A DNA stretch of 64,000 nt, from positions 530,776-594,775 of the forward strand of contig CBFIDD010000001.1 in NCBI GenBank assembly GCA_965661285.1, written 5' to 3'. The position numbers were made by a program, and so were the translations under genes. The DNA comes from Poseidonia sp. (GTDB taxonomy: Archaea; Thermoplasmatota; Poseidoniia; Poseidoniales; Poseidoniaceae). The notes beneath the pieces are model-generated. The model worked only from the letters and a program-made list of their open reading frames with translations, had not been told where the DNA came from and searched no databases. Each line of letters opens with the position of its first letter. The first letter of the stretch is position 1. Of this stretch, positions 1,535 to 42,056 are shown piece by piece.

Positions 1535-1745
1535 GTGCAGCCTGCTGCTGACCCTTCTTCCAGCTCTCTGAGTTGTACAACGGCCTCTCCCGTGCCAAGG
1601 CATGGAAAAGGCCCCACCCCTTTCTTCACCCACCTCGTTAACGATGAGTTCATAAACACGGCCACACACTTCCAACCGTCCTCCGGGACATGGGATGCAC
1701 ACCCGCTTCGGCGGGGGGCGGTGACGCCGAATGAACAGACGAGAG

Positions 1746-2816
1746 ATGCGAACGCCACAACCAAAGGCGCGTAAGCCAAGTCAAATGCGGCTGGCTGAAG
1801 AGAAACTCTCACTTCCTGCACGACTCACCCATCTTCGCCATCTTCCTTGGTTGTCATGCTATCAACGTCAACTCCAAACCGAAAACAAATCGGAAAACAC
1901 ACAAAAATCCTACTTTTACGGCCTGCGCCCGCTGATCGAGACCGTGCTGCCAGGCGAAGATGTGTTGAGTGAAGAGGCCTACAAACAACTGTCCATCGAA
2001 GCCCTCGCCGAACGCATGGAGCCGATGAAGGGACGATTGGACCTCTGGGCGCACAGCATCGCTGGCCTTCGGCCGACGACCTACAATGCTCGTCTGGCTG
2101 CGGCGCGACACCTCATCAAGTGGCTTGGTTTGCTCTGGCCCGACCATTTACAGCGCGCTCGTACTGGAAAACGACTCCCTCGCACCCTAACCCGAAGAGA
2201 ATTGACGACCGTGCTGGAGACCGCCGACGTGAGCGAGAATCCGGCTGCTTCCCTCGTGGTCACCATGATGCTTGACACCGGTTTGCGGGTGAGCGAAGTG
2301 TGCGAGTTGAACATCGAAGACATTGATTTTGACGATGGTTCTGCGCGCGTTCTTGGCGGCAAAGGTGACAAAGACCGTTTGGTCTTGTTTACCGCACGAA
2401 CCTTGGCTCGCTTGCAAGCATGGATGCCGATACGCACACGATTGGCGCCAGCGGAGGAACAAGCCTGTTTTGTCAATCGTCACGGTCGACGGTTGCAACC
2501 CCGAGGGGTGCAACGCATGATGGATGCACTCGGCCAAGAAGCGGGTTTGCCCAAAGGAAAACTCACACCGCACGTGCTGCGCCACAATTTCGCCACCGGC
2601 TTGTTGGAGCGAGGGGCCGACTTGGTCACGATTCAACGGCTGATGGGGCACGCCACCATTGCCACCACTCGCGTCTATCTCGAAATCTCTGACCAAACCC
2701 TCCGTGAGGTCTACCATCGGGCGCAATCCATGCGTGAAGACATGGACGATTCGCCCATTGAAACCATCCCCGTCGAAGAGACCACCCCGTCAACGAGCAC
2801 CCACGGCGTGGTGTGA
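1746..2816 (+). CDS. xerA: Tyrosine recombinase XerA/XerC-like
   Basis: Complete catalytic set: TGLRVSE (R), GKGDKDR (K), PHVLRHNFAT (HxxR), MGH, TTRVY (Y). Start uncertain (1746 or 1785). Confidence 0.88.
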   Translation: MRTPQPKARKPSQMRLAEEKLSLPARLTHLRHLPWLSCYQRQLQTENKSENTQKSYFYGLRPLIETVLPGEDVLSEEAYKQLSIEALAERMEPMKGRLDLWAHSIAGLRPTTYNARLAAARHLIKWLGLLWPDHLQRARTGKRLPRTLTRRELTTVLETADVSENPAASLVVTMMLDTGLRVSEVCELNIEDIDFDDGSARVLGGKGDKDRLVLFTARTLARLQAWMPIRTRLAPAEEQACFVNRHGRRLQPRGVQRMMDALGQEAGLPKGKLTPHVLRHNFATGLLERGADLVTIQRLMGHATIATTRVYLEISDQTLREVYHRAQSMREDMDDSPIETIPVEETTPSTSTHGVV

Positions 2817-11057: not shown

Positions 11058-12041
11058 ATGGTAGCAGAAGATACTGTCTTTGCTGTTCTCTATGATAAGT
11101 TCATGTTTTGGTCCATTCTGGTCGGAATTTTTACTTTCGGCTGGTTGTTTTTGGCCATGCTTCGCTATCGAGACGGCGTCGAGCCCGATACCACACAAAT
11201 CGACCACATCGAGGTGGGTTCGTTCCCGGTCGACCGACACAACACCAAACTTGAGGTGTTTTTCTACGTCCTGCCGACGGCCATCGTTGCGTGGCTCATC
11301 GTCCTCGCCCTCTCATCCAACACGGCGGTTTGGGTCATCCCTGAGGAAGCCGAAGCTCACGACATGAAAATCATCGGCAAGCAGTGGTTCTGGGAATACG
11401 AGTATAAAGACGCCCTGACATGGGAAGACGACCCCGCCATCACCTACATCGACGTTGACTGGAGCGGTACGGCCCTGACCGTGTCAAGTACCAACGCTGC
11501 TGCGGTGAATGTTTCCATTCAGAAAGGTGCAGATTCCCTTCCAGGGAAGTCGCTTGACACTGTAACAGGAGATGCACTCATCGAGGAGACCTTTGACCCC
11601 TACAAGCATTCCATCGTTGAGGTAACCGACGCAGACGGAAACGTGCTCCACACCTGGATGCACATCCCTAAGCAACACGTGTTCTCCTCTGCCCTTGGCG
11701 AAGACATGATTCTTCCTTGCGATGAGGCGGTCGTGTTTGAGATGCACTCCGCCCCCTCTGACGACTCTAACCCCAACTACATCGGCGTCCAGCATTCGTT
11801 CTGGCTCCCTGAATGGGGCGTCAAAGAAGACTTGGTGCCCGGCATCGAAGGTGGCACCTACATGACCATCACCGCCGACGACCCCGGCACCTTCCCCATC
11901 CGTTGTGCAGAGTACTGTGGCAACCAGCACTCCATGATGATCGGTCAAGTCAAGATCGTCGCCGCTGAAGGCACCGATTGTTCGGTTGACACCGGCGTCA
12001 AGAAGAGTGGCGAGTCGCCCCCTGCTGGAGGTGCGTACTGA
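11058..12041 (+). CDS. coxB: Heme-copper oxidase subunit II (CuA)
   Basis: Two TM helices, GKQWFWEYEY, VQHSFWLP, CAEYCGNQHSMM. Confidence 0.95.
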   Translation: MVAEDTVFAVLYDKFMFWSILVGIFTFGWLFLAMLRYRDGVEPDTTQIDHIEVGSFPVDRHNTKLEVFFYVLPTAIVAWLIVLALSSNTAVWVIPEEAEAHDMKIIGKQWFWEYEYKDALTWEDDPAITYIDVDWSGTALTVSSTNAAAVNVSIQKGADSLPGKSLDTVTGDALIEETFDPYKHSIVEVTDADGNVLHTWMHIPKQHVFSSALGEDMILPCDEAVVFEMHSAPSDDSNPNYIGVQHSFWLPEWGVKEDLVPGIEGGTYMTITADDPGTFPIRCAEYCGNQHSMMIGQVKIVAAEGTDCSVDTGVKKSGESPPAGGAY

Positions 12042-14362
12042 TGCGAGGTCGTGTCACGCTCCTGCTCGGCGTGCTCTTGGTCGCATTGATGGCCGCACCT
12101 CAATTCACAGCTGCTCCCGGCGGCATTGGCTCTGCCGGCGACCAAGGTTGTACCTGTCACGGCGGTGCCTCCCCCGACACCACGGTTCTCGTGGACGGCC
12201 TCCCTGAAACCTACAACGCCAGCGAGACGTACACCTTCACCGTCACCGTGCAAAACGACGTAATGGAAATCAACGAGGTCGACTGGAACGGACGAGCCGG
12301 TGGATTCCGCATCCTCGCGTCCCACGGCGACATCACCGCCGTGCCCGAATCCTACAGCCAAATGATGGACGGTGGACTCACCCACACGGAAGAAGCCAAC
12401 ACCGTTCGCTCGTGGACCTTCGAATGGACCGCTCCCGCTGCTGACGACCTCAACGTCGAGATGACCATTTACGGCAACGCTGTGAACGGTGGAAACGGTG
12501 CTGGAGGCGACCACTGGAACGTCGCCACCGTCGCCGTCGCAGGGATCAATGCTGGCGCCGTTGCAGCCAGTGCCAGCGCCCTTGTGATTTTCCTGACCTC
12601 CATTGGACTCGCTGCCGGCCTCATCTTTGCGGGTATCTTGTGGGTGTTCTACCGCCGCTCACCCGAGACCTTCACCATGGAACGGTTCTGGAGCTTCCTT
12701 AAGCCGTGGCTGACCACAACCGACCACAAAGAAGTCGGCATCATGTACTTCCTGTTCGGGTTCTTCTTCTTCCTCGTTGGTGGACTGTTGGCCCTGCTCT
12801 TCCGCATTCAGTTGGCGCTGCCTGAGAACGATTTCCTCACCTACGACGAGTACAACTCCTTCTTCACGCTGCACGGAACGACGATGATTTTCCTCGCCGC
12901 CATGCCGATGATTGCTGGATTCATGAACTACATCCTCCCGCTTCAAATCGGCGCCAAAGACCTCGCTTTCCCACGCATCAACGCCATGGGTCTGTGGTTG
13001 CTCGTCTTCTCCGCACCCCTCATTTTCACCGGCGTCTTTTCAGGTGAGGGTGCTGACATCACGTGGGTCATGTACCCGCCCTATTCCTCACTCAACGAGG
13101 CAAACCTCGGGTCAACCCTCGCCGATTACGGTTCGAACCCCGGCACAACGGCGTTCATTTCAGGCATGCTCATGCTCGGTGCTTCCTCGACCTTGGGCGG
13201 TGTGAACTTCATCACCACCGTGTTCACCATGCGTGCGCCCGGTGTGACGTGGATGAAGATGCCGCTGTTCACCTGGTCGGTCTTCATCAGCGTGTTCATG
13301 CTCTTCATGTCCCTGCCCGCACTCATCATCGGTGTGGCCTTCCTTCTGTTTGACCACACCATCGGAACGCAGTTCTTCGTTGCCGGGGGCGACCCGTTGC
13401 TCTTCCAACATCTGTTCTGGTTCTTCGGCCACCCCGAAGTCTACGTCGTCATCGTGCCGGCCTTCGGTATCGTTTCAGAGGTGCTCGCCACCTCCGCACG
13501 CCGCTCCATCTTCGGCTACAAATCGATGGTGTTCGCCATGGCCGGTATTGGTATCGTCGGTTTCATCGTGTGGGGCCACCACATGCTAACCTCCGGTATG
13601 GACCCGTTCTGGCGTGCGCTTTTCATGATCATGACCATGCTCGTCGCCATCCCGACCGGTGCGAAGATCTTCAACTGGCTCGCCACCCTGTGGGGCGGCT
13701 CGCTGGTGATGAAAACCCACACCCTCTGGTCGTTGGGCTTCCTGGTCACCTTCACGCTGGGTGGTATCTCAGGTATGTTCTTTCCCGTGGCTGGTCTTGA
13801 CATCCACTTCCACGATTCCTACTTCGTGGTGGCTCACTTCCACTACGTGTTCATCGGTGGTACCGTCTTTGCCCTGTTCTCTGCTGTCTACTACTGGTTC
13901 CCGAAGGCCACTGGACGCAAACTCAACGAAACCCTCGGACTGTGGCACTTCCTCATCGGCTTTGCCTCTTACAACGCTGCCTTCTGGCCCATGCACGCCC
14001 TAGGTATCATGGGCATGCCTCGACGAACCCACACCTACACCATTGAATCCGGCTTTGCAGAATACAACATGGCCGTCTCGACCTTCGCCTTCATCTTCGG
14101 TATCAGCCAACTTCTGCTTGTCTGGAACATCATATACTCTGCACGACGTGGAGAACCCGTGGGCAAGGACCCATGGGGCGGCTGGTCCCTCGAATGGTCC
14201 ACGACCTCCCCGCCGCCGACGCCTTCTTTCCACGACATTCCTACGCAGTACGATAAGAATGAGGAATTCGGTCATCACAAGGACGAACCGTCCTTGATGG
14301 ACAGGCTGGTGAAAGCAGAACCGAAAGGTATTGTCGTCGGTCATGTGGAGGGAGAAGAATGA
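12041..14362 (+). CDS. coxA: A1-type heme-copper oxidase subunit I with an N-terminal secreted CxCH/Reeler-like domain
   Basis: WLTTTDHKEVG, TLHG, DLAFPRIN, WFFGHPEVY, WGHHM, TGAK, HFHY; about 220 aa N-terminal extension. Confidence 0.97.
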   Translation: MRGRVTLLLGVLLVALMAAPQFTAAPGGIGSAGDQGCTCHGGASPDTTVLVDGLPETYNASETYTFTVTVQNDVMEINEVDWNGRAGGFRILASHGDITAVPESYSQMMDGGLTHTEEANTVRSWTFEWTAPAADDLNVEMTIYGNAVNGGNGAGGDHWNVATVAVAGINAGAVAASASALVIFLTSIGLAAGLIFAGILWVFYRRSPETFTMERFWSFLKPWLTTTDHKEVGIMYFLFGFFFFLVGGLLALLFRIQLALPENDFLTYDEYNSFFTLHGTTMIFLAAMPMIAGFMNYILPLQIGAKDLAFPRINAMGLWLLVFSAPLIFTGVFSGEGADITWVMYPPYSSLNEANLGSTLADYGSNPGTTAFISGMLMLGASSTLGGVNFITTVFTMRAPGVTWMKMPLFTWSVFISVFMLFMSLPALIIGVAFLLFDHTIGTQFFVAGGDPLLFQHLFWFFGHPEVYVVIVPAFGIVSEVLATSARRSIFGYKSMVFAMAGIGIVGFIVWGHHMLTSGMDPFWRALFMIMTMLVAIPTGAKIFNWLATLWGGSLVMKTHTLWSLGFLVTFTLGGISGMFFPVAGLDIHFHDSYFVVAHFHYVFIGGTVFALFSAVYYWFPKATGRKLNETLGLWHFLIGFASYNAAFWPMHALGIMGMPRRTHTYTIESGFAEYNMAVSTFAFIFGISQLLLVWNIIYSARRGEPVGKDPWGGWSLEWSTTSPPPTPSFHDIPTQYDKNEEFGHHKDEPSLMDRLVKAEPKGIVVGHVEGEE

Positions 14363-15714
14363 GTGGCGGAGAAGCTCACGTTGAGAACAGCGTTTGGATG
14401 CGCGCCGTCTTGATCGGTGGCGTCTTCCTCGCCATCGGTATCCTCGCCTTCGCCACCATGGGCGTTGGTGTGGCCAACATCAAACACCACGATTATGACG
14501 TCGCCATTGAGGAGTATGAGGACGCCAAGTACGCTTACGAAGACGCCAAAGCCAACGGTGCCAGCGAATCGGAAATCAAATCCCTTAAGGAAGCCAAGGA
14601 AGAAGCGCACCACCATGAAATAGAAGCCCATCTATCTTACTTAACGTGGCGAACAGCAGGCATTACCATCCTGCTGATGTGCATCACCTATGCAGCCTTC
14701 ATGGGCCTGGGTGGCTTCATGAACTCGATTTATCCCGACGATGCCGGTCATGACGACCACGGCTACGGTGGCGATGACCACGAGCACCACGGTTCAGGCT
14801 CGCCGATCGTGTTCTCGCTGGGTATTCTGCTCTTCTTGATGGGCTTCCCGTCCTTCCAAGGCGTGCTTGGTAACTTGCTTTCCGGCGTGGATGCCAACCT
14901 TAGCGACCTGGGTTTGAGCATGCTCGGCCTGGTGGTTGTCACCGCCGGTGTTGCCAACTGGTGGCGTGAAGACCTGCCGTTTATCGGCAATCACGAGCAA
15001 ATTGCGACCTCCGATCCCTTTGAAGGTCAACACATCCGCAAGGCCGGCCTTTGGGTCTTCATTATGTCCGAAGTGATGGTTTTCGCCACCTTCTTCTCGT
15101 CCTACCTCCGCATGCGCACAGAATGGTGCACAGGCTGGCAGGTCAACGCTGGAAATTGTGAGGAAGTGAACATGCTCACGGCCTCCGATTTCCTTCGACC
15201 CAACGGCGCCATGCTCGACGGACTGGGTGGACAAGGCGACTTCATGACGCTCTTACCCGGTGCCATCAACACCTTTGCGCTCATCATCTCCTCCTACACC
15301 ATCGTGCTGGCCCTCAAGACGGCCAAGGACAAGGAGTGGACGGCCCCCTCAGGATTCATGGGCAAGCTGATGCCAACCCGAAAAGTCGCTGTCCGAAACT
15401 ACCTGCTCGCTACGTTCATTCTGGGTTCGATGTTTATTGTGCTGAAGCTCATTGAATGGAGCCATCTCGTTGCAGAAGGCTTCACCATCGGAACCCAAGC
15501 GGGCTCCATCTTCTACATCTCAACTGGCGCTCACGGCGTGCACGTCTTTGTCGGCTTGCTCGTGATGCTGTACTTGATTTTCAAGGCAGGCTTTGCTGGA
15601 GACGATGTTGAATATGACGAGAGAAACGCTCAGGGCATCGAATACTTCGGTTTGTACTGGCACTTTGTCGACTTGGCTTGGGTGGTTATCTTCCCGGCCT
15701 TCTATCTGTATTGA
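14359..15714 (+). CDS. coxC: Heme-copper oxidase subunit III with an N-terminal extension
   Basis: GLWVFIMSEVMVFATFF, INTFALIISS, TGAHGVHV, GLYWHFVDLAW. Confidence 0.93.
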   Translation: MSGGEAHVENSVWMRAVLIGGVFLAIGILAFATMGVGVANIKHHDYDVAIEEYEDAKYAYEDAKANGASESEIKSLKEAKEEAHHHEIEAHLSYLTWRTAGITILLMCITYAAFMGLGGFMNSIYPDDAGHDDHGYGGDDHEHHGSGSPIVFSLGILLFLMGFPSFQGVLGNLLSGVDANLSDLGLSMLGLVVVTAGVANWWREDLPFIGNHEQIATSDPFEGQHIRKAGLWVFIMSEVMVFATFFSSYLRMRTEWCTGWQVNAGNCEEVNMLTASDFLRPNGAMLDGLGGQGDFMTLLPGAINTFALIISSYTIVLALKTAKDKEWTAPSGFMGKLMPTRKVAVRNYLLATFILGSMFIVLKLIEWSHLVAEGFTIGTQAGSIFYISTGAHGVHVFVGLLVMLYLIFKAGFAGDDVEYDERNAQGIEYFGLYWHFVDLAWVVIFPAFYLY

Positions 15715-15723
15715 GGTGAGATC

Positions 15724-16119
15724 ATGGGAGAACACGAAACAACTGGAATCTTGGAATCAATTGTTGAAAAACTGCCGGGTGGCTACGACATCTACTTTTG
15801 GAACTTCGTCATCTTGATGTTCTTCACGCTGTTCGAAGTCGCCGCCGTTTTCTTTGAGAAGATCCCCGGTACGGACATTGAAATTTCGCTCTACGCTGTT
15901 TGGGCTATCTTGATTGGCGTTGGTGTCATCAAGGGCTACGGCATCGCTGCCTACTTCATGCACTTGAAGGGCGACCCCCGTATCTACACCCGAACAGCGC
16001 TGTTCCCCGTGCTCTTTGTCTTGTTGATGCTTTGGGGTATCGGACTTTCCAACCCGGGTTCTGTCCAAGCGCTTCCCGACTGGTGCACGCCCAACTGGGA
16101 GTTTGCTAGCCAACGCTGA
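15724..16119 (+). CDS. coxD: Heme-copper oxidase subunit IV family
   Basis: Three TM helices, T..EV, K...IAAYFMHLKGD; SD GAGGTGA. Confidence 0.88.
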   Translation: MGEHETTGILESIVEKLPGGYDIYFWNFVILMFFTLFEVAAVFFEKIPGTDIEISLYAVWAILIGVGVIKGYGIAAYFMHLKGDPRIYTRTALFPVLFVLLMLWGIGLSNPGSVQALPDWCTPNWEFASQR

Positions 16120-16128
16120 GGGTCAACC

Positions 16129-17655
16129 ATGCGAGCCAGCCAAAAAGCACTGGCCGTACTGATGCTCTCGGTTCTCCTGATGGCGCCCGCTTCTGCCTAT
16201 CTTGGTAAACAGTTGGCACGCGGTCCGGTAGATGACTTCACGCTCCTCGACCACAAGGGCGAGTCGTACACCTTTGGAACGGACGCTGAAGGCGTGGTCG
16301 TCGTTTCGTTCATCTTCACCCGATGTCCGGATGTTTGTCCGGTGCTGACGCAGAAATTGATTGCAGTGGACGGGGAACTCAGCGATGAGGAGCGGGAGGA
16401 CGTCACCTTCGTTTCCATCAGCGTTGACCCCGACCACGATACGCCAGAGGTGCTCATGGAATACACCGAGCGCATGGGTGCGTCATGGCCGCATCTCACC
16501 GGTTCAACCGAAGAGATGCAACCGATTTGGGACATGTTTGGGGTGGTGGTTCAACAAAACGTCATCGACATGCACGTGATGGAGTACCAGCCCGGTGAAG
16601 CCTCCGTCACCGTGGTGGACACCGGCAACAACAGTTCTCAACACATGTTCGCTTGGTCGGGATGGAGCATCACACAAACGATGGCATCGACGGCCAATTT
16701 GAGCCTCAACACCTCCGTGCACAGCGAATACGGAACCACCGTCCACGGCATCAACGGCGTGGATTCACCGTCCGACTGGTCGTGGTGGTGGGAGCTCAAC
16801 CTTTGGAATGCCACCAACAGCTCCTGGGAACCATCCGATGTTGGCGTGGACAGCGTGGACGGGTTGGACCATCCACACATCGCCTGGTTGCCCTCAAACG
16901 GCAATCGAAGTGCGCTTTCGCCACCCCACGATGACCATGCGACAAGCTTGAGTGTGCAGTGGCCCAACGGTACGCAAGAACAGTTCGGGCAGGAGGCGTT
17001 CAACGCCTACCACATCACGCAAGGTGCGCTCAACGGGGCCGACGTGAACACGTCCATTGAACTCACAACCTACGGACACTACCTCTCAAGCCTCGGTGAC
17101 GAAGACGCCCCTGACGATTATGCGTGGTGGTGGAACCTCTACGGATGGAATGCAACCGACGAAATGTGGGAATCCTCCAGCGTCGGCATGGACGATTTCA
17201 GCGAACCGCTGCACCTCGCTTGGGCACCCTCCTACACCAATGCCTCAACCATACCAGCCCCAACCGTTGAAGCCTCTGATGAAACGGTCTGCAACGGACA
17301 TGGATGGGAAATGGGCAGCGGCGAATCAAAGCACTGCATGTGCGACAGCGGCTACATCTGGGCCGAGGACGACCAGTTGAGTTGCGTGCCCGAAACCACC
17401 GAGGAATACAACGTGGGCCATTCCACCATCACCTACATTCTCAACGATGATCTTGAACCAACCGTGGCATGGACCGGCGATGCTTGGCGCGTCGAAGACT
17501 TCACGGCCGACGTGAGAGAACTCCTTGAGAAGGAACAATTGGGTGGCTACGAAGCCGGTGTGGTGCCCTCAATTTCGTTGTTGATGACCACCATCGCACT
17601 GCTTTCAGCCACTGTTTTCCTTGGCGCACGCCGAGATGAGACGGACGAAGAGTAG
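16129..17655 (+). CDS. Sco/SenC copper chaperone with a large internal insertion and a C-terminal TM anchor
   Basis: FIFTRCPDVCP, ISVDPDHDTPEVL, W.HLTG; the conserved distal His (YNVGHS) lies about 290 aa further downstream than usual. Confidence 0.9.
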   Translation: MRASQKALAVLMLSVLLMAPASAYLGKQLARGPVDDFTLLDHKGESYTFGTDAEGVVVVSFIFTRCPDVCPVLTQKLIAVDGELSDEEREDVTFVSISVDPDHDTPEVLMEYTERMGASWPHLTGSTEEMQPIWDMFGVVVQQNVIDMHVMEYQPGEASVTVVDTGNNSSQHMFAWSGWSITQTMASTANLSLNTSVHSEYGTTVHGINGVDSPSDWSWWWELNLWNATNSSWEPSDVGVDSVDGLDHPHIAWLPSNGNRSALSPPHDDHATSLSVQWPNGTQEQFGQEAFNAYHITQGALNGADVNTSIELTTYGHYLSSLGDEDAPDDYAWWWNLYGWNATDEMWESSSVGMDDFSEPLHLAWAPSYTNASTIPAPTVEASDETVCNGHGWEMGSGESKHCMCDSGYIWAEDDQLSCVPETTEEYNVGHSTITYILNDDLEPTVAWTGDAWRVEDFTADVRELLEKEQLGGYEAGVVPSISLLMTTIALLSATVFLGARRDETDEE

Positions 17656-17698: not shown

Positions 17699-17784
17699 GC
17701 AGTCGTCGCATAGCCTGGTATTGCGCCGGATTTGAAATCCGGTGTCCCCGTGACTCGGGAGTTCAAATCTCTCCGACTGCGCCA
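17699..17784 (+). tRNA. tRNA-Ser(TGA)
   Basis: Acceptor GCAGTCG/CGACTGC + G + encoded CCA; anticodon stem CCGGA/TCCGG with loop ttTGAaa; long variable arm; GTTCAAATC T-loop. Confidence 0.95.
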
Positions 17785-17842
17785 CTCCGATATCGACAAA
17801 AATCAGGGAAGACTTCTCAAACTCCACCCGCTCTCTCGGGGT

Positions 17843-19306
17843 ATGCGCAGAGGTACCCTCGCCATCTGTCTCATCGCCAGCATGCTTCTGGCTGGTTGCC
17901 TCGGACCCTCAACAGCCGAATGGGGAACGGGTTCGGGAGCGGTCCAGGTGGACTTCGCCATGGATGGCACCACCGTCAAAAGCACCTTGCTTGGTGAGTC
18001 TCGAACCGTAAGCGACCTGCTCCCGGTCGGTTGCACACCCGGAACAGAAGGCGGCACACTCGAAGCCGGTGCCGGCAGCCCCATCACGTTCACAGGCTAT
18101 CTTGCTGCAAGTCAGTTTTACGACGCGCACGACAGCGTGATGGGCGCCCGGGGTCTTGACGTTGGTGTCACAACTGCGGTTGCGATACAGTCCATGCCCT
18201 TTGATGCGGCCGCCTCGGTGGTTGATGGCGAAGGCGCTCGAATCGATGTCAAGCAATGGGCGCTCCCCCTCCAGCCCGACACGGGTGCGGGAAGCGTTGA
18301 CATCGATGAAGTCGATTCGGAGTCCGAAACCGATTGGTTTGTCCTCGGACTGATTCCAACCACGGAAAATCTCCTTGACGGCATGAAGGCCTTGGGCGAG
18401 TGGCATCAACCCGTGACGGTTCACGGTTACCTCGTATCTGCAGCCAACTCGAGTCAAAACGCCTACGGGTACCAAGCCACATGGCACAAAGCCAGCAACG
18501 AATGCGCATTGACGGTTGGATCGACCAACAAGGAAGACGCCTACGTGCTTGTCTCAAAGATTTCTCTCGACGGCGCCACCGTTTCAGCCAACGGTGAAGC
18601 GGACGACGAATGGGTTCAGGGTGATGTGCCCTTCCTCGGTCGAGGCGGATTCATCATGTTCTTCCTCATTGCTGGCCTTGGCGGTGCCGTCGGCCTGTTC
18701 ATCGTCTCCAAACAGATGATGATGGGGGCAGCCCAGAAGAATATGCGGATCCTCATCGGCGACGAGGGCATGAAGAAGGCGGCCAGTGTCAAAAAGGACG
18801 CCAAGGCTGCCAAGAAGGCAGGTATGGAATCGCCTGAAGATCGTCAACGCCGGCAACAACGCGAACGTCAACAAGTCGAAAAAGAACAGAAGAGAAAACA
18901 ACCCCCAGCAAAGAGCGAACCCAAGAAGAAGGACGAAGACGCCTTGGGTGGATTTGACCTTGACAGCGTGCTGGCATCAACCTCATCGGGCGGACCCGGC
19001 GGTTCTGCCCCCAAAGGCCGAAAGAGTTCGGTGGTCGTCACCGAGGCGGCTCAAGAAATGGAACACATGAATGCACAACAAGAGACGACGACCACAACAT
19101 CATCCCTTCCTGCTTCGTTCTCACAGCAGCGCCGAAGTGCACCGCCAACGCAGACACGGTCCGAGCAACCTACAGAAGCCCCCGCCAAGCCCAAGGTCCG
19201 ACGTCGGAAGGCCGTGAAGAGGTCTGCTTCCGAACCTGCAGAAGAGCGTGCTCCGCCTGCTGAACACTACGATGACGAAGAGGACTTCTCCGACTTCTCG
19301 TTCTAG
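17843..19306 (+). CDS. Putative lipoprotein/membrane protein with a charged low-complexity cytoplasmic tail
   Basis: Lipobox-like LAGC after the signal peptide, TM at about aa 270-290, K/E/S-rich tail. Confidence 0.82.
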   Translation: MRRGTLAICLIASMLLAGCLGPSTAEWGTGSGAVQVDFAMDGTTVKSTLLGESRTVSDLLPVGCTPGTEGGTLEAGAGSPITFTGYLAASQFYDAHDSVMGARGLDVGVTTAVAIQSMPFDAAASVVDGEGARIDVKQWALPLQPDTGAGSVDIDEVDSESETDWFVLGLIPTTENLLDGMKALGEWHQPVTVHGYLVSAANSSQNAYGYQATWHKASNECALTVGSTNKEDAYVLVSKISLDGATVSANGEADDEWVQGDVPFLGRGGFIMFFLIAGLGGAVGLFIVSKQMMMGAAQKNMRILIGDEGMKKAASVKKDAKAAKKAGMESPEDRQRRQQRERQQVEKEQKRKQPPAKSEPKKKDEDALGGFDLDSVLASTSSGGPGGSAPKGRKSSVVVTEAAQEMEHMNAQQETTTTTSSLPASFSQQRRSAPPTQTRSEQPTEAPAKPKVRRRKAVKRSASEPAEERAPPAEHYDDEEDFSDFSF

Positions 19307-39297: not shown

Positions 39298-39380
39298 CTG
39301 TTTTTGGCGACACTCAATGAAGGCTCCCCCGGGAAGCGCACACACGACGGGTTCTTATGCAAGAGAGCGATGGTGAAACC

Positions 39381-42056
39381 ATGCGTTTGAAAGTTACACT
39401 CTCGGTGTTGGTCGTTTCCATGTTGATCGCATTCCCCCTCTCGTGTACGGACGCACAACCTCGACCCGTGGTTGAAGATGCTTCCCTGCAGGCGTTCAGT
39501 TCTGCCGAAAATCAAAGCGGATGGTTGGCCACTGCAGGGGGTTCAAACCTTGAGCGCATCACCAGCATCCTTCCGCTTTCAAACGGAAGCACCATTGTTG
39601 GGGGTGATTTTCAACAAACGATCGATTTCAACGGAGACGTGATTGGTTTCGCAAGCGAGGACTCTGATTTTGGCGTTGATTTTTTCCTTGCATGGCTGGA
39701 TGAAAACGGGACGTGGACCAACACGATGACCGGTTTCAGCGTCGGTCTGGACAGTGTTGATGCCCTCGCACAACTGAGCGATGGTACCGTTTTGGTGGCG
39801 GGCAGTTATTGTGGAATCACAAAAGAAGACGCCTGCAACATGACATTGGGTGCTTTAGAACCGCTTGAAAAAGCGGATGATAATCACGAGAATGCAGTGT
39901 TTTTGGCAGCCATGACACCGCTTGGAGAGTGGATGTGGGGCACTTCGTACTCTACCGAGTACGAAATATCCGTTCTGGACATGATGGTTGATCAAAACGA
40001 CGAAATCCATCTTGTTTTGAAACACAGTGGCATGTTGGACCTCGGAGATGATGTATTCCTCGGATCCGGGGTTGAAAGTACGCTTTCGCTCCTCGTGCTG
40101 GATCATCTCGGCGACCGTCTGTATTTCAACGAGGTCATCTCGAGCTACGACATTGAGTCATGGGGCTCTCTTTGTCTTGACGGAACCGGACAAACCTATC
40201 TCGCCTCCACGTTTGTTGATTTGGTAAGATTTGGCACGCACGAAGTTTTCAGTCAAGGCGGCTCGAACATCGCCATCGCTCAGTACAACTCTGGTGGCTG
40301 GTTGTGGGCGTCGGGTGCTGGAGGCGCCGGTGATTCAACGGTGGTCGATTGTGCGGGGCGCCCGGACGGAGGTGTGGCCGTCGTGGGTGATTTCCTACAA
40401 AACATGACCTTTGGAGATATCGAACTCGACCCTGCCGTGTGGGTGGACTTCTACGAAGCGCACCTCTCGCAAAACGGGACGTGGTTGCACGCTTCTGGTT
40501 TTGGAGGGAATGGAGCAGACCACGCTGCTGCGCTCAAGGTAACCGAGCAGGGAGATTCCATCATCACCGGAAAAACCACCGGTTCAGTTACCCTTGGGGA
40601 ATTCCTCTTGAACGACATTGACGGGGTCAATGACGGAAATCACTACGATGTTTTCCTCGGTTTACGGCAAGCGAACAGCGATTGGGATTGGGCCATCGTC
40701 GTCGGTGGTCAAGGTAATGATCTCCCCCATGAGTTAGAGATGAGTTCGTCCGGGTCGCCAGTGATATCGTTCAGCTCAAATCAAGACGGTGAATTTGGCA
40801 CCCACCTGTTCGATCAGCGGGATCAATACGATGTCGGTGTGTGGTTGTACGAGACCGATTTGGATTTTGACGGGGTGCTCGACGGTGTTGATAACTGTCC
40901 AAAAACAGTCAATAGCGACCAGGCCAACTTGGACAACGACGCTTTCGGTGATGTCTGTGATGACGACATCGACGGTGATGGTGTGTCAAACACCGACGAC
41001 GACTGTCCCACAGGCGACATGGGTTGGGCGGCAAACAGCATCTCCGACCACGACAGCGACGGTTGCAGGGATTTGACCGAAGATTTGGACGATGATGAAG
41101 ACGGCATCTTCGACGAGCAGGATCTTTGTCCAAAAGGCCCCGTTGGATGGGTTTCGACCGAAGAAACCGACATTGAATCCGATGGTTGTTCGGACGAAGA
41201 CAACGATAACGATGGGTTCGTCGACCAAGCCGATAACTGTCCGGCCATGGCCAACCCAACACAAGCGGACCTTGACAACGATGGTGTCGGCGACGTATGC
41301 GATTTGGATAAAGACGGTGATGGCATTACCATTCCCAATGATAATTGCCCGAACGATATCAATTCATGGATTTCGTTCAGTTGGAACGATTACGACAGCG
41401 ATGGGTGCTTGGATGACGGGGCCGATGAAGACGATGATGATGATGGTGTTCTCGACACGAACGATGATTGCCCACTCGGTGAGAAAAATTGGGGCGACAA
41501 CGCCTCAACCCTCGACCACGACGGCGATGGGTGTCATGACGATCTTGAGGACGAAGACGACGACCAGGACGGTATCAAAGACCCCATTGACCGGTGCCCA
41601 CGAGGCCTCATTGGGTTGGCGCAAACCGGACAAGACAACGACGGCGACGGGTGCATCGATGCGGTTGAGGATGACGATGACGACCAAGACGGTGTGCTTG
41701 ACCCGCTCGACCGATGTGCAAACACCGACCCTTCCCAGCAAGTCTCCTCAAACGGGTGCAGTCAATACCAGTTGGACGATGATAACGACGGCGTGGTGAA
41801 CGCCTACGACTTCTGTTTGGATTCACCTGTTGGAGCGGTGGTCGACGAACGCGGATGCGGTGATCGGGCGGTCGAGCCTGCGGGCGAAACCGACAGCAGT
41901 GGTTTCGGTTTGGCAGGCGCTTTCTTCCTTCTCACAGGCATCATCATCGTCTATGCCGTCTACCTCAACAACAAGCGACCAGGCCCCCCACTTCCAAAAC
42001 AACCGGTTGGTTTTGAGGCGCCGCCCGAGCGTCCTGCGATGGACGAAGAAGCGTAA
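39381..42056 (+). CDS. Surface protein: beta-propeller-like N-terminus, thrombospondin type-3 repeats and a C-terminal TM
   Basis: Signal peptide, W...GG...D repeats, many DxDxDG/DxCP repeats, C-terminal TM helix. Confidence 0.92.
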   Translation: MRLKVTLSVLVVSMLIAFPLSCTDAQPRPVVEDASLQAFSSAENQSGWLATAGGSNLERITSILPLSNGSTIVGGDFQQTIDFNGDVIGFASEDSDFGVDFFLAWLDENGTWTNTMTGFSVGLDSVDALAQLSDGTVLVAGSYCGITKEDACNMTLGALEPLEKADDNHENAVFLAAMTPLGEWMWGTSYSTEYEISVLDMMVDQNDEIHLVLKHSGMLDLGDDVFLGSGVESTLSLLVLDHLGDRLYFNEVISSYDIESWGSLCLDGTGQTYLASTFVDLVRFGTHEVFSQGGSNIAIAQYNSGGWLWASGAGGAGDSTVVDCAGRPDGGVAVVGDFLQNMTFGDIELDPAVWVDFYEAHLSQNGTWLHASGFGGNGADHAAALKVTEQGDSIITGKTTGSVTLGEFLLNDIDGVNDGNHYDVFLGLRQANSDWDWAIVVGGQGNDLPHELEMSSSGSPVISFSSNQDGEFGTHLFDQRDQYDVGVWLYETDLDFDGVLDGVDNCPKTVNSDQANLDNDAFGDVCDDDIDGDGVSNTDDDCPTGDMGWAANSISDHDSDGCRDLTEDLDDDEDGIFDEQDLCPKGPVGWVSTEETDIESDGCSDEDNDNDGFVDQADNCPAMANPTQADLDNDGVGDVCDLDKDGDGITIPNDNCPNDINSWISFSWNDYDSDGCLDDGADEDDDDDGVLDTNDDCPLGEKNWGDNASTLDHDGDGCHDDLEDEDDDQDGIKDPIDRCPRGLIGLAQTGQDNDGDGCIDAVEDDDDDQDGVLDPLDRCANTDPSQQVSSNGCSQYQLDDDNDGVVNAYDFCLDSPVGAVVDERGCGDRAVEPAGETDSSGFGLAGAFFLLTGIIIVYAVYLNNKRPGPPLPKQPVGFEAPPERPAMDEEA

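What the first reader, a model, noticed from the sequence alone, without database searches (positions are those of the whole stretch)
16129..17655. Sco copper chaperone split by two transcobalamin-C-like (DUF4430) repeats and an EGF-like module
Seen: the Sco CxxxC (CPDVC, about 16324) and its third Cu ligand His (YNVGHS, 17419) are separated by about 290 inserted residues. The insert contains two similar units (YGTTVHGINGVDSPSDWSWWWELNLWN..WEPSDVG.D and YGHYLSSLGDEDAPDDYAWWWNLYGWN..WESSSVG.D) and a Cys module, CNGHG...CMCDSGY......SC. Known: YG..V..INGV....W.L matches the DUF4430 beta-grasp fold of cobalamin-binding proteins, and C.GHG..C.C..GY..C is EGF-like. Inference: a ligand-binding (possibly corrinoid) module sits in the Sco loop next to the Cu site and could couple oxidase assembly to a small-molecule signal.
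Basis: partly seen in the sequence, partly recalled or inferred. Interest (0 to 1): 0.8.

Follow-up and report, generated by a model that had tools for sequence, protein, structure and literature searches.

The report
Archaeal Sco chaperone with inserted domains
The copper-insertion helper (Sco) of a marine archaeon's respiratory oxidase has three extra small domains spliced into the loop that closes over its copper site, a conserved and apparently undescribed arrangement whose purpose is still unknown.

Summary
ORF 16129-17655 (+, 508 aa) is the last gene of a coxII-coxI-coxIII-coxIV-sco operon of a Poseidoniales (Marine Group II) archaeon.

- **Split Sco fold.** Residues 24-150 hold CPDVC. 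Residues 425-470 hold His431 and the closing strand-strand-helix.
- **Insert of about 275 aa in the "Sco loop".** It holds two homologous units (aa 157-261 and 271-373) and a 37-aa four-Cys knot (aa 385-421).
- **The units are DUF4430 / transcobalamin-beta-like.** Support comes from Pfam hits in relatives, coincidence with true DUF4430 repeats, topology, and Foldseek top hits with weak E-values.
- **"EGF-like" is not established.** The knot has four Cys instead of six, and all Pfam hits are below threshold.
- **Corrinoid sensing is untested, and nothing here points to it.**

New here: the Sco loop is a modular hotspot in this lineage. Among 241 relatives it carries 0-5 units, with or without the knot or His-rich tracts. 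The knot has invariant Met395, His402 and Met404 and never co-occurs with His-rich tracts (0 of 135 against 68 of 106). The same unit, next to His-rich tracts, is also inserted at the His-rich loop of ZnuA-type zinc-binding proteins.

My best reading, held with moderate confidence, is a copper-capture and hand-off antenna on a CuA assembly factor. I rate it a new variant of a known kind.

The parts
16129..17655 (+). Whole gene: Sco/SenC-type copper chaperone with nested insertion (508 aa plus stop)
   Evidence: ORF list and translation. Pfam SCO1-SenC E 3.2e-26. 305 relatives, named 'SCO family protein' by NCBI in Poseidonia.
16129..16197 (+). Signal peptide, aa 1-23, ...APASA|YLG (inferred cleavage)
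   Evidence: Hydrophobic N-terminal helix aa 3-18 in the model. A23 and G26 are invariant and Y24 nearly so. The cleavage site is an inference.
16198..16578 (+). N-terminal part of the Sco thioredoxin fold, aa 24-150
   Evidence: Pfam aa 36-145 = profile 3-111/134. PDB phmmer: human SCO1 2gqk E 2.1e-12, aa 24-136. Foldseek: 2k6v E 2.6e-8.
16324..16338 (+). CxxxC copper/redox motif CPDVC (C66, C70)
   Evidence: Invariant in 32 of 32. A CxxxC is present in 240 of 241 relatives.
16573..16575 (+). His149 ('VIDxH'), nearly invariant, at the start of the opened Sco loop; role unknown
   Evidence: At least 90% conserved in A1. In relatives, His-rich tracts begin at this place.
16597..16911 (+). DUF4430 / transcobalamin-beta-like unit 1, aa 157-261
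   Evidence: Unit HMM i-E 2e-40. The Pfam DUF4430 hits in relatives fall on this unit. Predicted topology is beta-beta-alpha-(beta-hairpin)-beta-beta-beta, model pLDDT 90.8.
16939..17247 (+). DUF4430 / transcobalamin-beta-like unit 2, aa 271-373
   Evidence: Unit HMM i-E 8e-38. 38% identical to unit 1. The profile of A2 aligns this unit to PDB 3u7z at E 0.018.
17281..17391 (+). Four-Cys knot, aa 385-421, CNGHGWEMGSGESKHCMCDSGYIWAEDDQLSC, with invariant M395, H402 and M404
   Evidence: Conservation over 147 copies. Two predicted beta-hairpins. Pfam EGF-type hits are all below threshold.
17401..17538 (+). C-terminal part of the Sco fold, aa 425-470: His431 followed by strand-strand-helix
   Evidence: G430 and H431 are invariant. 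Strands 434-438 and 444-449, helix 455-468. It is predicted to dock on aa 24-152. Sequence matches to solved Sco chains are colinear but not significant.
17419..17421 (+). His431, inferred third copper ligand
   Evidence: Invariant. A His stands at this place in 241 of 241 relatives. It aligns with the His of SCO1 chains (weak).
17572..17643 (+). C-terminal membrane anchor helix, aa 482-505, then RRDETDEE
   Evidence: Helix in the model. Relatives carry PGF-type motifs here; PGF_CTERM is below threshold in P0140, 16 bits against 24.5.
11058..16119 (+). Upstream operon partners: coxII (11058-12041, CuA motif CAEYCGNQHSMM), coxI (12041-14362), coxIII (14359-15714), coxIV (15724-16119)
   Evidence: Pfam COX2, COX1, COX3 and COX4_pro. 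The same order directly upstream is seen in 78 of 80 loci; the other two contigs start at sco.

Best explanation
This is the CuA-assembly factor (a Sco/SenC thioredoxin-fold copper chaperone and thiol-disulfide oxidoreductase) of the aa3-type oxidase operon of a Poseidoniales archaeon.

It is exported and held on the outer face of the membrane by a C-terminal anchor. Its thioredoxin fold is discontinuous. Residues 24-150 carry CPDVC. Residues 425-470 supply His431 and the closing strand-strand-helix.

The mobile 'Sco loop' that normally folds over the copper site has been opened. It now carries two glycosylation-sequon-rich DUF4430 (transcobalamin-beta-like) beta-grasp domains and, directly before His431, a 37-residue disulfide knot with invariant Met395, His402 and Met404.

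I infer that this expanded loop is a copper acquisition and hand-off device. The knot plays the role that His-rich tracts play in sister proteins, and that pCuAC plays elsewhere: it captures copper and passes it to the Cys2His site. The DUF4430 pair forms the rigid platform that presents it.

Shown: gene identity, operon context, split fold, domain kinds, conservation, and loop modularity. Inferred: copper binding by the knot, disulfide pairing, glycosylation, and any ligand of the DUF4430 units.

My odds are about 0.9 for the architecture and about 0.4 for the copper-capture role.
For: Identity and context:
- Pfam SCO1-SenC E 3e-26. Solved Sco chains match by sequence and by fold.
- The gene is the last of coxII-I-III-IV-sco. 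That order directly upstream is seen in 78 of 80 loci; the other two contigs start at sco.
- CoxII has a CuA motif.

Split fold:
- The Pfam match stops at profile position 111 of 134.
- C66, C70, G430 and H431 are invariant.
- A two-chain prediction (aa 24-152 plus aa 420-475) scored 0.69, against 0.00 for the best of 3 controls. That mark was reached by 116 of 157 solved complexes and 2 of 215 mismatched pairs. The runs agree in at least 80% of contacts, and the partner pLDDT is at least 68.
- In that prediction, strand 434-439 lies antiparallel to strand 56-60, and residues 68-70 are in the interface. This pass may only reflect likeness to solved Sco structures.

Units are DUF4430-like.

Loop as a metal-handling hotspot:
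- The 241 complete relatives carry 0-5 units, with or without the knot.
- In 19 relatives the loop holds no recognised unit or knot; 18 of them have a His-rich window, and in the two I read (P0315, P0306) the loop is a pure His/Asp tract.
- A His-rich window occurs in 0 of 135 proteins with the knot, against 68 of 106 without it.
- In the knot, M395 and M404 are conserved in 147 of 147 copies and H402 in 146 of 147, as strictly as the four Cys.
- P0187 is a 276-aa Sco that has only the knot in its loop.
- The same unit abuts His-rich tracts in 6 of 9 ZnuA-type proteins. In P0190 it lies inside the gap that ends at the His-rich loop of AdcA/ZnuA.

Background: Met/His sites are the known Cu(I) sites of pCuAC, and the Sco loop holds the ligand His (PMC6696091, passages read).
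Against: - No metal binding was or could be tested here.
- I had no model coordinates, so the His431-to-Cys distance and the geometry of M395/H402/M404 are unknown.
- The loop region is the least confident part of the full model (aa 423-431 have pLDDT < 50).
- The 0-of-135 against 68-of-106 contrast counts related sequences from two query-centred searches. It could reflect a few lineage splits rather than functional replacement.
- The window protein itself has no His-rich tract and only 12 His in the 274-aa insert.
- Most conserved residues of the units are Trp, Gly, Pro and Asn-sequons, which look structural.
- Sequence evidence that aa 425-470 is the Sco C-terminus is not significant on its own. 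The second phmmer domain has i-E 7e3. The A3 profile gives E 0.92 for 6n5u, behind two chance GAPDH hits.
- Absence of pCuAC was checked only among the 49 window ORFs scanned and the six proteins, not in the genome.
Confidence: 0.4

Rival explanations
1. Passive scaffold or docking module. The insert binds no metal or ligand. It is a rigid, glycosylated extracellular module that tolerates insertion in a flexible loop. It either spaces Sco within the cell envelope or docks it onto the lineage-specific extra domains of the oxidase (the CoxI N-terminal choice-of-anchor V domain and the extra stretch in CoxII).
For: - The unit occurs in many unrelated surface proteins: PQQ beta-propellers, NosD-like, SBP, and CarboxypepD_reg multi-repeat proteins.
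- Conserved positions are mainly Trp, Gly and Pro, plus four conserved N-x-S/T sequons.
- All 11 sequons and 18 of the 22 Trp of the protein lie in the insert.
- CoxI carries a fused choice-of-anchor V domain, E 7e-27, and CoxII is longer than its Pfam match.
- Burroughs et al. 2007 list surface-protein fusions of this clade (PMC1796856, passages read).
Against: - It does not explain the strict invariance of M395, H402 and M404 in the knot.
- It does not explain the exclusive alternation of knot and His-rich tracts.
- It does not explain the repeated pairing of the unit with His-rich tracts at metal-site loops of two unrelated metalloprotein families.
Confidence: 0.3
2. The DUF4430 units bind a corrinoid or another soluble small molecule next to the copper site, and so couple oxidase assembly to that signal.
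For: - The units share the fold and family of the transcobalamin and intrinsic factor beta domain. Foldseek top hits are 2pmv, 5no0, 5np4 and 4kki, with probability 0.97-1.00.
- The predicted topology includes the beta-hairpin after the helix. That hairpin marks the transcobalamin-like clade and contributes B12 contacts (PMC1796856; topology).
- The same paper predicts soluble-ligand binding for the clade and notes that archaeal members may bind a different metabolite.
Against: - No alpha/alpha toroid partner domain is present.
- No B12 uptake or synthesis genes are in the 64-kb window.
- Foldseek E-values are only 7e-3 to 7e-2, with none at or below 1e-3.
- The unit number varies from 0 to 5 among orthologous Sco proteins, which is odd for a tuned sensor.
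- Residue-level comparison with the B12 contacts of transcobalamin could not be made.
Confidence: 0.1
3. Artefact. The long ORF is a mis-assembly, a chimera or a decaying gene rather than a working protein.
For: None found. One relative (P0056, 756 aa) with five units could be an assembly artefact of repeats.
Against: - The architecture is full-length and in frame in 80 of 80 loci from different species-level genomes, always with two units.
- Identity across relatives is 43-97%, with invariant functional residues.
- The insert-only model is confident: pLDDT 90.8, pTM 0.78.
Confidence: 0.01

Closest known systems
Sco1/SenC/PrrC family (PF02630), e.g. human SCO1 (2gqk), Thermus thermophilus Sco (2k6v), Bacillus subtilis Sco (1xzo)
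   Same: Thioredoxin fold, CxxxC plus a distal His, an extracytoplasmic membrane-tethered location, and a gene next to cytochrome oxidase genes.
   Different: About 275 residues (three domains) are nested in the Sco loop. In known Sco proteins this loop is a short beta-hairpin (PMC6696091). The Pfam model therefore matches only positions 3-111 of 134.
Transcobalamin / intrinsic factor / haptocorrin beta domain and prokaryotic DUF4430 (PF14478); the transcobalamin-like clade of SLBB beta-grasp domains (Burroughs et al. 2007, PMC1796856)
   Same: Predicted beta-grasp with the extra hairpin after the helix. The 'YG..(I/L)..(I/L).G' and 'W.W.L' motifs read directly from the sequence. Extracellular location. 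Foldseek top hits.
   Different: There is no alpha/alpha toroid partner. The units are very Trp-rich and sequon-rich, inserted inside another domain, and paired in relatives with His-rich tracts. B12 binding is untested.
PDB 3u7z, RUMGNA_00854, deposited as 'putative metal binding protein'
   Same: Best sequence-profile match of the insert in the PDB (E 0.018) and second-best fold match (TM 0.55 normalised to the target).
   Different: It is a stand-alone 101-aa bacterial protein. That it belongs to DUF4430 is my recollection and was not checked. Its metal site, if any, is unknown to me.
His-rich loop of ZnuA/AdcA zinc-binding proteins
   Same: Both are flexible segments beside a metal site that have been elaborated for metal capture. 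In relatives the Sco loop carries the same kind of His/Asp tracts. The same DUF4430-like unit is inserted at the ZnuA His-rich loop.
   Different: The fold, the metal and the protein family differ. The window protein has the Cys knot instead of a His-rich tract.
pCuAC / ECuC periplasmic Cu(I) chaperones (H(M)X10MX21HXM site)
   Same: The proposed role is the same: a Met/His Cu(I) site that feeds CuA assembly together with Sco (PMC6696091).
   Different: There is no homology. pCuAC has a separate cupredoxin-like fold. Here the candidate site is a 37-aa knot inside Sco. Copper binding is an inference only.
EGF-like domains
   Same: The C-x-C-x2-G-[YF] spacing, and two predicted beta-hairpins.
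   Different: It has four Cys, not six. All Pfam EGF-type matches are below threshold. Its invariant Met, His and Met are not EGF features.

Membership tests
Sco1/SenC (PF02630) | Significant match to the family model / thioredoxin-like fold | tested here: met
   E 3.2e-26, 92.3 bits against a cut-off of 22.8. 32 of 32 relatives match. Foldseek hits Sco structures at E 2.6e-8.
Sco1/SenC (PF02630) | CxxxC motif | tested here: met
   CPDVC at aa 66-70. Invariant. Present in 240 of 241 relatives.
Sco1/SenC (PF02630) | Distal His ligand at the head of the strand that closes the fold | tested here: met
   H431 is invariant and is followed by strand-strand-helix. The segment is predicted to dock antiparallel to strand 56-60 (score 0.69, best control 0.00). 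Caveats: sequence matches are not significant and no coordinates were available.
Sco1/SenC (PF02630) | Short beta-hairpin Sco loop | tested here: not met
   The loop holds a 275-aa insertion. This is the variant feature.
Sco1/SenC (PF02630) | Copper binding / CuA assembly activity | not testable with these tools
   Only context is available: it is the last gene of the cox operon in the window, and cox genes lie directly upstream in 78 of 80 loci.
DUF4430 (PF14478) / transcobalamin-like SLBB | Pfam model match above the gathering score | tested here: inconclusive
   The window protein gives no hit even at E <= 10. Nine of 32 relatives hit at E <= 0.1, and P0094 scores 24.3 bits against a cut-off of 23.8. 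The unit profile coincides with strong DUF4430 repeats, e.g. P0147 at E 3.8e-29.
DUF4430 (PF14478) / transcobalamin-like SLBB | Beta-grasp core with a beta-hairpin inserted after the helix | tested here: met
   Both units are predicted as beta-beta-alpha-(beta-beta)-beta-beta-beta, pLDDT 90.8. The definition comes from PMC1796856.
DUF4430 (PF14478) / transcobalamin-like SLBB | Structural similarity to solved members | tested here: inconclusive
   The top hits are 2pmv, 3u7z, 5no0 and 4kki, with probability 0.97-1.00 and TM 0.51-0.55 per target domain. E-values are only 7e-3 or worse, with none at or below 1e-3.
DUF4430 (PF14478) / transcobalamin-like SLBB | Cobalamin (or other soluble ligand) binding | not testable with these tools
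   No cobalamin ligand is offered by the tools, and no residue-level alignment to transcobalamin was available.
EGF-like domain | Six Cys forming three disulfides | tested here: not met
   There are four Cys (388, 403, 405, 419), invariant in 147 of 147 copies.
EGF-like domain | Match to an EGF family model above threshold | tested here: not met
   cEGF scores 14.3 bits against 26.6, and EGF_Teneurin 10 against 24.3. EGF_3, cEGF and EGF_Teneurin each hit 1 of 32 relatives at E 0.02-0.06.
PGF-CTERM archaeosortase signal | TIGR04126 match at the extreme C-terminus | tested here: not met
   No hit for the window protein. Relative P0140 scores 16 bits against 24.5. PGFTF motifs are visible in relatives.

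The most novel reading that the evidence does not exclude
The inserted cassette lets Sco take copper from the organically complexed pool of seawater. In this reading the transcobalamin-like units bind a metal-organic complex (a chalkophore-like or tetrapyrrole-like copper ligand). The Met/His knot strips the metal and relays it to the Cys2His site. The same unit, paired with His-rich tracts in ZnuA-type proteins, would do the equivalent for zinc. This would make DUF4430 units a general 'metal-complex receptor' module of planktonic archaea, and would make this Sco a fused stand-in for the missing pCuAC step.
Probability: 0.1. Interest if true: 0.85.

Novelty: new variant of a known kind. Interest (0 to 1): 0.6.

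Why it matters
Poseidoniales are, from recall, among the most abundant planktonic archaea. Their aerobic respiration depends on loading copper into CuA in water where free copper is extremely scarce.

Sco proteins are textbook small single-domain chaperones. Here the loop that gates the copper site has become a modular platform: DUF4430 units, a Met/His-bearing knot, or His-rich tracts. That gives a natural series of variants for asking how copper reaches Sco outside the cell. It also offers a possible function for the poorly understood prokaryotic DUF4430 domain. Finally, it is a clear case of the same module being inserted at the metal-site loops of two unrelated metalloprotein families.

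Public annotation calls these genes only 'SCO family protein'. My literature searches found no description of the architecture:
- 'DUF4430': 8 papers held, 7 listed, none on Sco or archaea by title.
- 'Marine Group II' + 'cytochrome c oxidase' + 'Sco': 21 papers held, 15 listed.
- 'Poseidoniales' + 'SenC': 2 held, 1 listed, unrelated.
- 'Poseidoniales' + 'copper chaperone': 0.
- Sco + copper chaperone + domain insertion + thioredoxin fold, at least 3 of the 4 terms: 20 held, 10 listed.

I judged all of these from listings only. Subscription journals are not covered by the library.

Tried and rejected
- **Pfam on four pieces of the window protein at E <= 10.** No DUF4430 hit, only sub-threshold EGF-type hits.
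- **NCBIfam on the protein.** Nothing.
- **Foldseek with the full-length model.** It found only the N-terminal Sco part and did not bridge the insert, so it could not confirm the discontinuous fold.
- **Model coordinates.** None are exposed, so no Cys-His distance could be measured.
- **Profile of the C-terminal segment (A3) against the PDB.** Not significant: Arabidopsis SCO1 6n5u scores E 0.92 and is aligned at the right place, but two chance GAPDH hits rank higher.
- **A duplicated His strand?** 'SVTVVD...' (aa 159-163), and 'H-x-V-x-V-L-Y-P-D-N' in relatives, resemble the Sco His strand, and Pfam extends its Sco match through them in P0173 and P0140. I rejected this reading. The stretch folds confidently as the first hairpin of unit 1 without the Sco domain. 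The equivalent stretch of unit 2 aligns to the first strands of 3u7z.
- **His149 as the true ligand instead of His431.** I considered this. His431 is favoured because only it heads the closing strand. A role for His149 stays open.
- **Search for short proteins carrying the knot.** Only 9 fragments were found.
- **ESM Atlas look-up of the knot.** No usable hit.
Their organisms remain unknown.
- **Promoter and terminator scan of the operon.** Nothing above the shuffles.
- **Unit HMM over the whole window and over +/-8 kb of the 80 loci.** No further copies outside sco.
Full report
**1. What is in the sequence**

The ORF 16129-17655 (+) encodes 508 residues.

Pfam finds SCO1-SenC at E 3.2e-26. 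The match covers only residues 36-145, which is profile positions 3-111 of 134. Solved Sco chains match the same N-terminal stretch (human SCO1 2gqk, E 2.1e-12).

The four genes upstream, all on the same strand, are coxII, coxI, coxIII and coxIV (Pfam COX2, COX1, COX3, COX4_pro). CoxII carries the CuA motif CAEYCGNQHSMM (sequence). A tRNA-Ser gene follows at 17699-17784. The other genes of the window (MC1, the DP2 large subunit of DNA polymerase II, the primase large subunit) are archaeal.

**2. The repeats are real**

The two units are 38% identical over 92 residues (BLASTP E 1e-20 for the pair). Their Smith-Waterman score is 172, against 37 +/- 7 (maximum 75) in 2000 shuffles.

A profile built from both units across 46 orthologues places them at residues 157-261 and 271-373, and places the Cys module at 385-421. 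It finds no other copy in the window.

**3. Conservation and distribution**

- The protein collection holds 305 relatives at E <= 0.001. The 120 listed are 43-97% identical, about 505-520 residues long, and named 'SCO family protein' from Poseidonia where a name exists.
- A scan of species-representative genomes gave 329 relatives. The 80 best loci bear Poseidoniales-type titles, apart from three contigs binned under bacterial names (L001, L073, L074) that share the same archaeal gene order. I take those three to be mis-binned.
- coxIV lies directly upstream in 78 of 80 loci; the other two contigs begin at sco. The same downstream gene follows in 77 of 80; the other three contigs end first.
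- In 80 of 80 loci the Sco ORF has exactly two units, and no other ORF within +/-8 kb has any.
- In a 32-sequence alignment C66, C70, H431, the four module cysteines and many Trp are invariant.

**4. The fold is discontinuous**

The full-length AlphaFold2 model (pLDDT 81.6, pTM 0.54) predicts strand 434-438, strand 444-449 and helix 455-468 after His431, followed by a C-terminal membrane helix at 482-505. The segment 423-431 has pLDDT below 50.

I therefore folded residues 24-152 and 420-475 as two chains.

- The score was 0.69, against 0.00 for the best of three controls.
- That mark was reached by 116 of 157 solved complexes and by 2 of 215 mismatched pairs.
- The runs agree in at least 80% of contacts, and the partner pLDDT is at least 68.
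- Strand 434-439 pairs antiparallel with strand 56-60, and residues 68-70 are in the interface. That register would bring His431 next to the CxxxC end of the strand.

This pass may simply reflect likeness to solved Sco structures. It shows that the C-terminal piece looks like the missing Sco piece; it does not show binding.

Sequence evidence for the C-terminal piece is colinear but not significant. The second phmmer domain to SCO1 has i-E 7e3. The profile of 34 C-terminal segments gives E 0.92 for 6n5u, behind two chance hits.

**5. The units are DUF4430 / transcobalamin-beta-like**

- The window protein gives no PF14478 hit. Nine of 32 relatives do at E <= 0.1, and the six individually scanned hits that I located all fall on unit 1. 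P0094 passes the gathering score, 24.3 bits against 23.8.
- phmmer of the insert against 1.84 billion representatives found 110 proteins. I scanned 51 of these 110 with Pfam. Among them are multi-repeat proteins with strong DUF4430 matches (P0147, E 3.8e-29, four stretches). In these, my unit profile coincides with the Pfam stretches.
- An insert-only model built from 46 sequences is confident (pLDDT 90.8, pTM 0.78). It gives each unit the order strand-strand-helix-hairpin-strand-strand-strand. That is the topology Burroughs et al. 2007 give for the transcobalamin-like clade of SLBB beta-grasp domains (PMC1796856, passages read).
- The best Foldseek matches are intrinsic factor (2pmv, E 6.7e-3), 3u7z (7.9e-3, TM 0.55 per target), the isolated transcobalamin beta domain (5no0, 7.9e-3, TM 0.51) and haptocorrin. 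None reaches E 1e-3.
- The profile of the insert also finds 3u7z by sequence (E 0.018).

Taken together the assignment is sound, although each single line is modest.

**6. The Cys module is not a demonstrated EGF domain**

It has four Cys. All EGF-type Pfam matches are far below threshold. It is predicted as two beta-hairpins.

Its conservation is what stands out. Over 147 copies:

| Residues | Conserved in |
|---|---|
| C388, G392, M395, G396, C403, M404, C405, C419 | 147 of 147 |
| H402 | 146 |
| Y409 | 144 |
| W393, W411 | 143 each |
| H391 | 122 |

. These copies are related and are not independent.

One 276-residue Sco (P0187) has only this module in its loop. It is 26/43 identical there, and its Pfam Sco match stops at profile position 106.

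**7. The Sco loop is a modular hotspot**

The set comes from three searches, so it is biased.

| Architecture | Number |
|---|---|
| N - unit - unit - knot - C | 126 |
| N - unit - unit - C | 59 |
| N - unit - C | 28 |
| N - C, no recognised unit or knot in the loop | 19 |
| N - unit - knot - C | 8 |
| N - five units - knot - C | 1 |

Of the 241, 240 have a CxxxC and all have the His. Eighteen of the 19 N-C proteins have a His-rich window in the loop, and in the two I read (P0315, P0306) the loop is a pure His/Asp-rich tract.

A His-rich window (at least 5 His in 20 residues) occurs in the loop of 0 of 135 proteins with the knot. It occurs in 68 of 106 proteins without it.

The unit also occurs in nine ZnuA-family proteins.
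- All nine have His-rich windows, and in six of them one abuts the N-terminal side of a unit.
- In P0190 the ZnuA fold is interrupted between residues 113 and 481. It resumes exactly at the His-rich loop of AdcA, and the unit lies inside that gap.

The unit is also found in NosD/MopE-like proteins, SBP-type proteins, PQQ beta-propellers and CarboxypepD_reg surface proteins.

**8. Interpretation**

Established knowledge (review PMC6696091, passages read):
- The 'Sco loop' carries the ligand His and forms a hairpin over bound copper.
- Sco can act as a copper donor or as a thiol reductase.
- pCuAC supplies Cu(I) from a Met2His2 site.

Here the loop is opened just after His149 and closed just before His431. 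The element nearest His431 is either a knot with invariant Met, His and Met, or a His/Met-rich tract. I therefore commit to a copper capture and hand-off role for the expanded loop, with the DUF4430 pair as a presenting platform.

All 11 N-x-S/T sequons and 18 of the 22 Trp of the protein lie in the insert. Four sequon Asn (N194, N227, N259, N341) are conserved. This suggests a glycosylated surface module, which is an inference.

The passive-scaffold rival remains strong. The corrinoid-sensor reading is untested and lacks supporting context.

**9. Novelty**

Public annotation stops at 'SCO family protein'. My searches (listings only) found no description of a Sco with inserted domains or of DUF4430 in Sco or ZnuA. 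Burroughs et al. list several fusions of the clade but none with Sco or ZnuA in the passages I read.

I rate it a new variant of a known kind, interest 0.6.

Noticed in passing
window 12041-12730 (first 230 aa of the coxI ORF 12041-14362): CoxI is fused at its N-terminus to a 'choice-of-anchor V' domain (NCBIfam NF041895, E 7e-27, 94.3 bits against a cut-off of 42). It contains GCTCHGG and is followed by a membrane helix. The Pfam COX1 match begins only at aa 232. An extracellular domain fused to oxidase subunit I is unusual.
   Followed up: partly
window 14737-14793 (aa 127-145 of the coxIII ORF 14359-15714): CoxIII is 451 aa long, and its best Pfam COX3 stretch covers aa 344-450. Its N-terminal extension contains a His/Asp-rich tract, DDAGHDDHGYGGDDHEHHG, of the same kind as those in the loops of sister Sco and ZnuA-type proteins.
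   Followed up: no
window 11058-12041 (coxII): CoxII (327 aa) matches the Pfam COX2 periplasmic domain only at aa 243-296. It seems to carry about 100 or more extra residues between the membrane helices and the cupredoxin domain. This could be a docking partner for the Sco insert.
   Followed up: no
window 17699-17784 and 17732-19306: tRNA-Ser (anticodon TGA) lies directly after sco. The listed TTG start of the next ORF (17732) overlaps it, so the real start is probably the ATG at 17843 (MRRGTLAICLIASMLLAGC, lipobox-like). This protein of about 490 aa has an extracellular domain, one membrane helix and a long Lys/Glu/Arg-rich tail. It matches no family, yet it follows sco in 77 of 80 loci.
   Followed up: partly
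proteins P0131, P0142, P0156, P0157, P0170, P0176, P0183, P0190, P0209: These ZnuA-family metal-binding proteins have a fold split at the His-rich loop by several hundred residues. The inserted stretch contains the same DUF4430-like unit and multiple His/Asp tracts, and in six of the nine (P0142, P0156, P0157, P0176, P0183 and the fragment P0131 less clearly) Pfam also finds EF-hands. Their organisms are unknown.
   Followed up: partly
protein P0187 (276 aa): A Sco protein of a different-looking, Arg-rich lineage carries only the four-Cys knot in its Sco loop, without DUF4430 units. This hints that the knot is an older or independently mobile Sco-loop module.
   Followed up: partly
protein P0056 (756 aa): A relative with five units before the knot. 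It is either a real expansion or an assembly artefact of the repeats.
   Followed up: no
relatives P0155, P0171, P0140, P0178, P0241, P0315 (C-termini): Many relatives end in ...(L/I)PGFTF + hydrophobic helix + basic residues. This looks like a PGF-CTERM archaeosortase signal, although TIGR04126 stays below threshold (16 bits against 24.5 in P0140). The window protein has a degenerate form (VPSISLL...).
   Followed up: partly
loci L001, L073, L074: Three contigs with the full archaeal cox-sco gene order are deposited in MAGs named as bacteria (Verrucomicrobiales, Salipiger bermudensis, Rhodobiaceae). This is probably binning contamination.
   Followed up: no
window 1731-2813 and 39357-42053: A phage-integrase-family gene (E 1e-38) lies near the window start. 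A separate 899-aa protein carries thrombospondin type 3 (calcium-binding) repeats. Neither is related to the finding.
   Followed up: no
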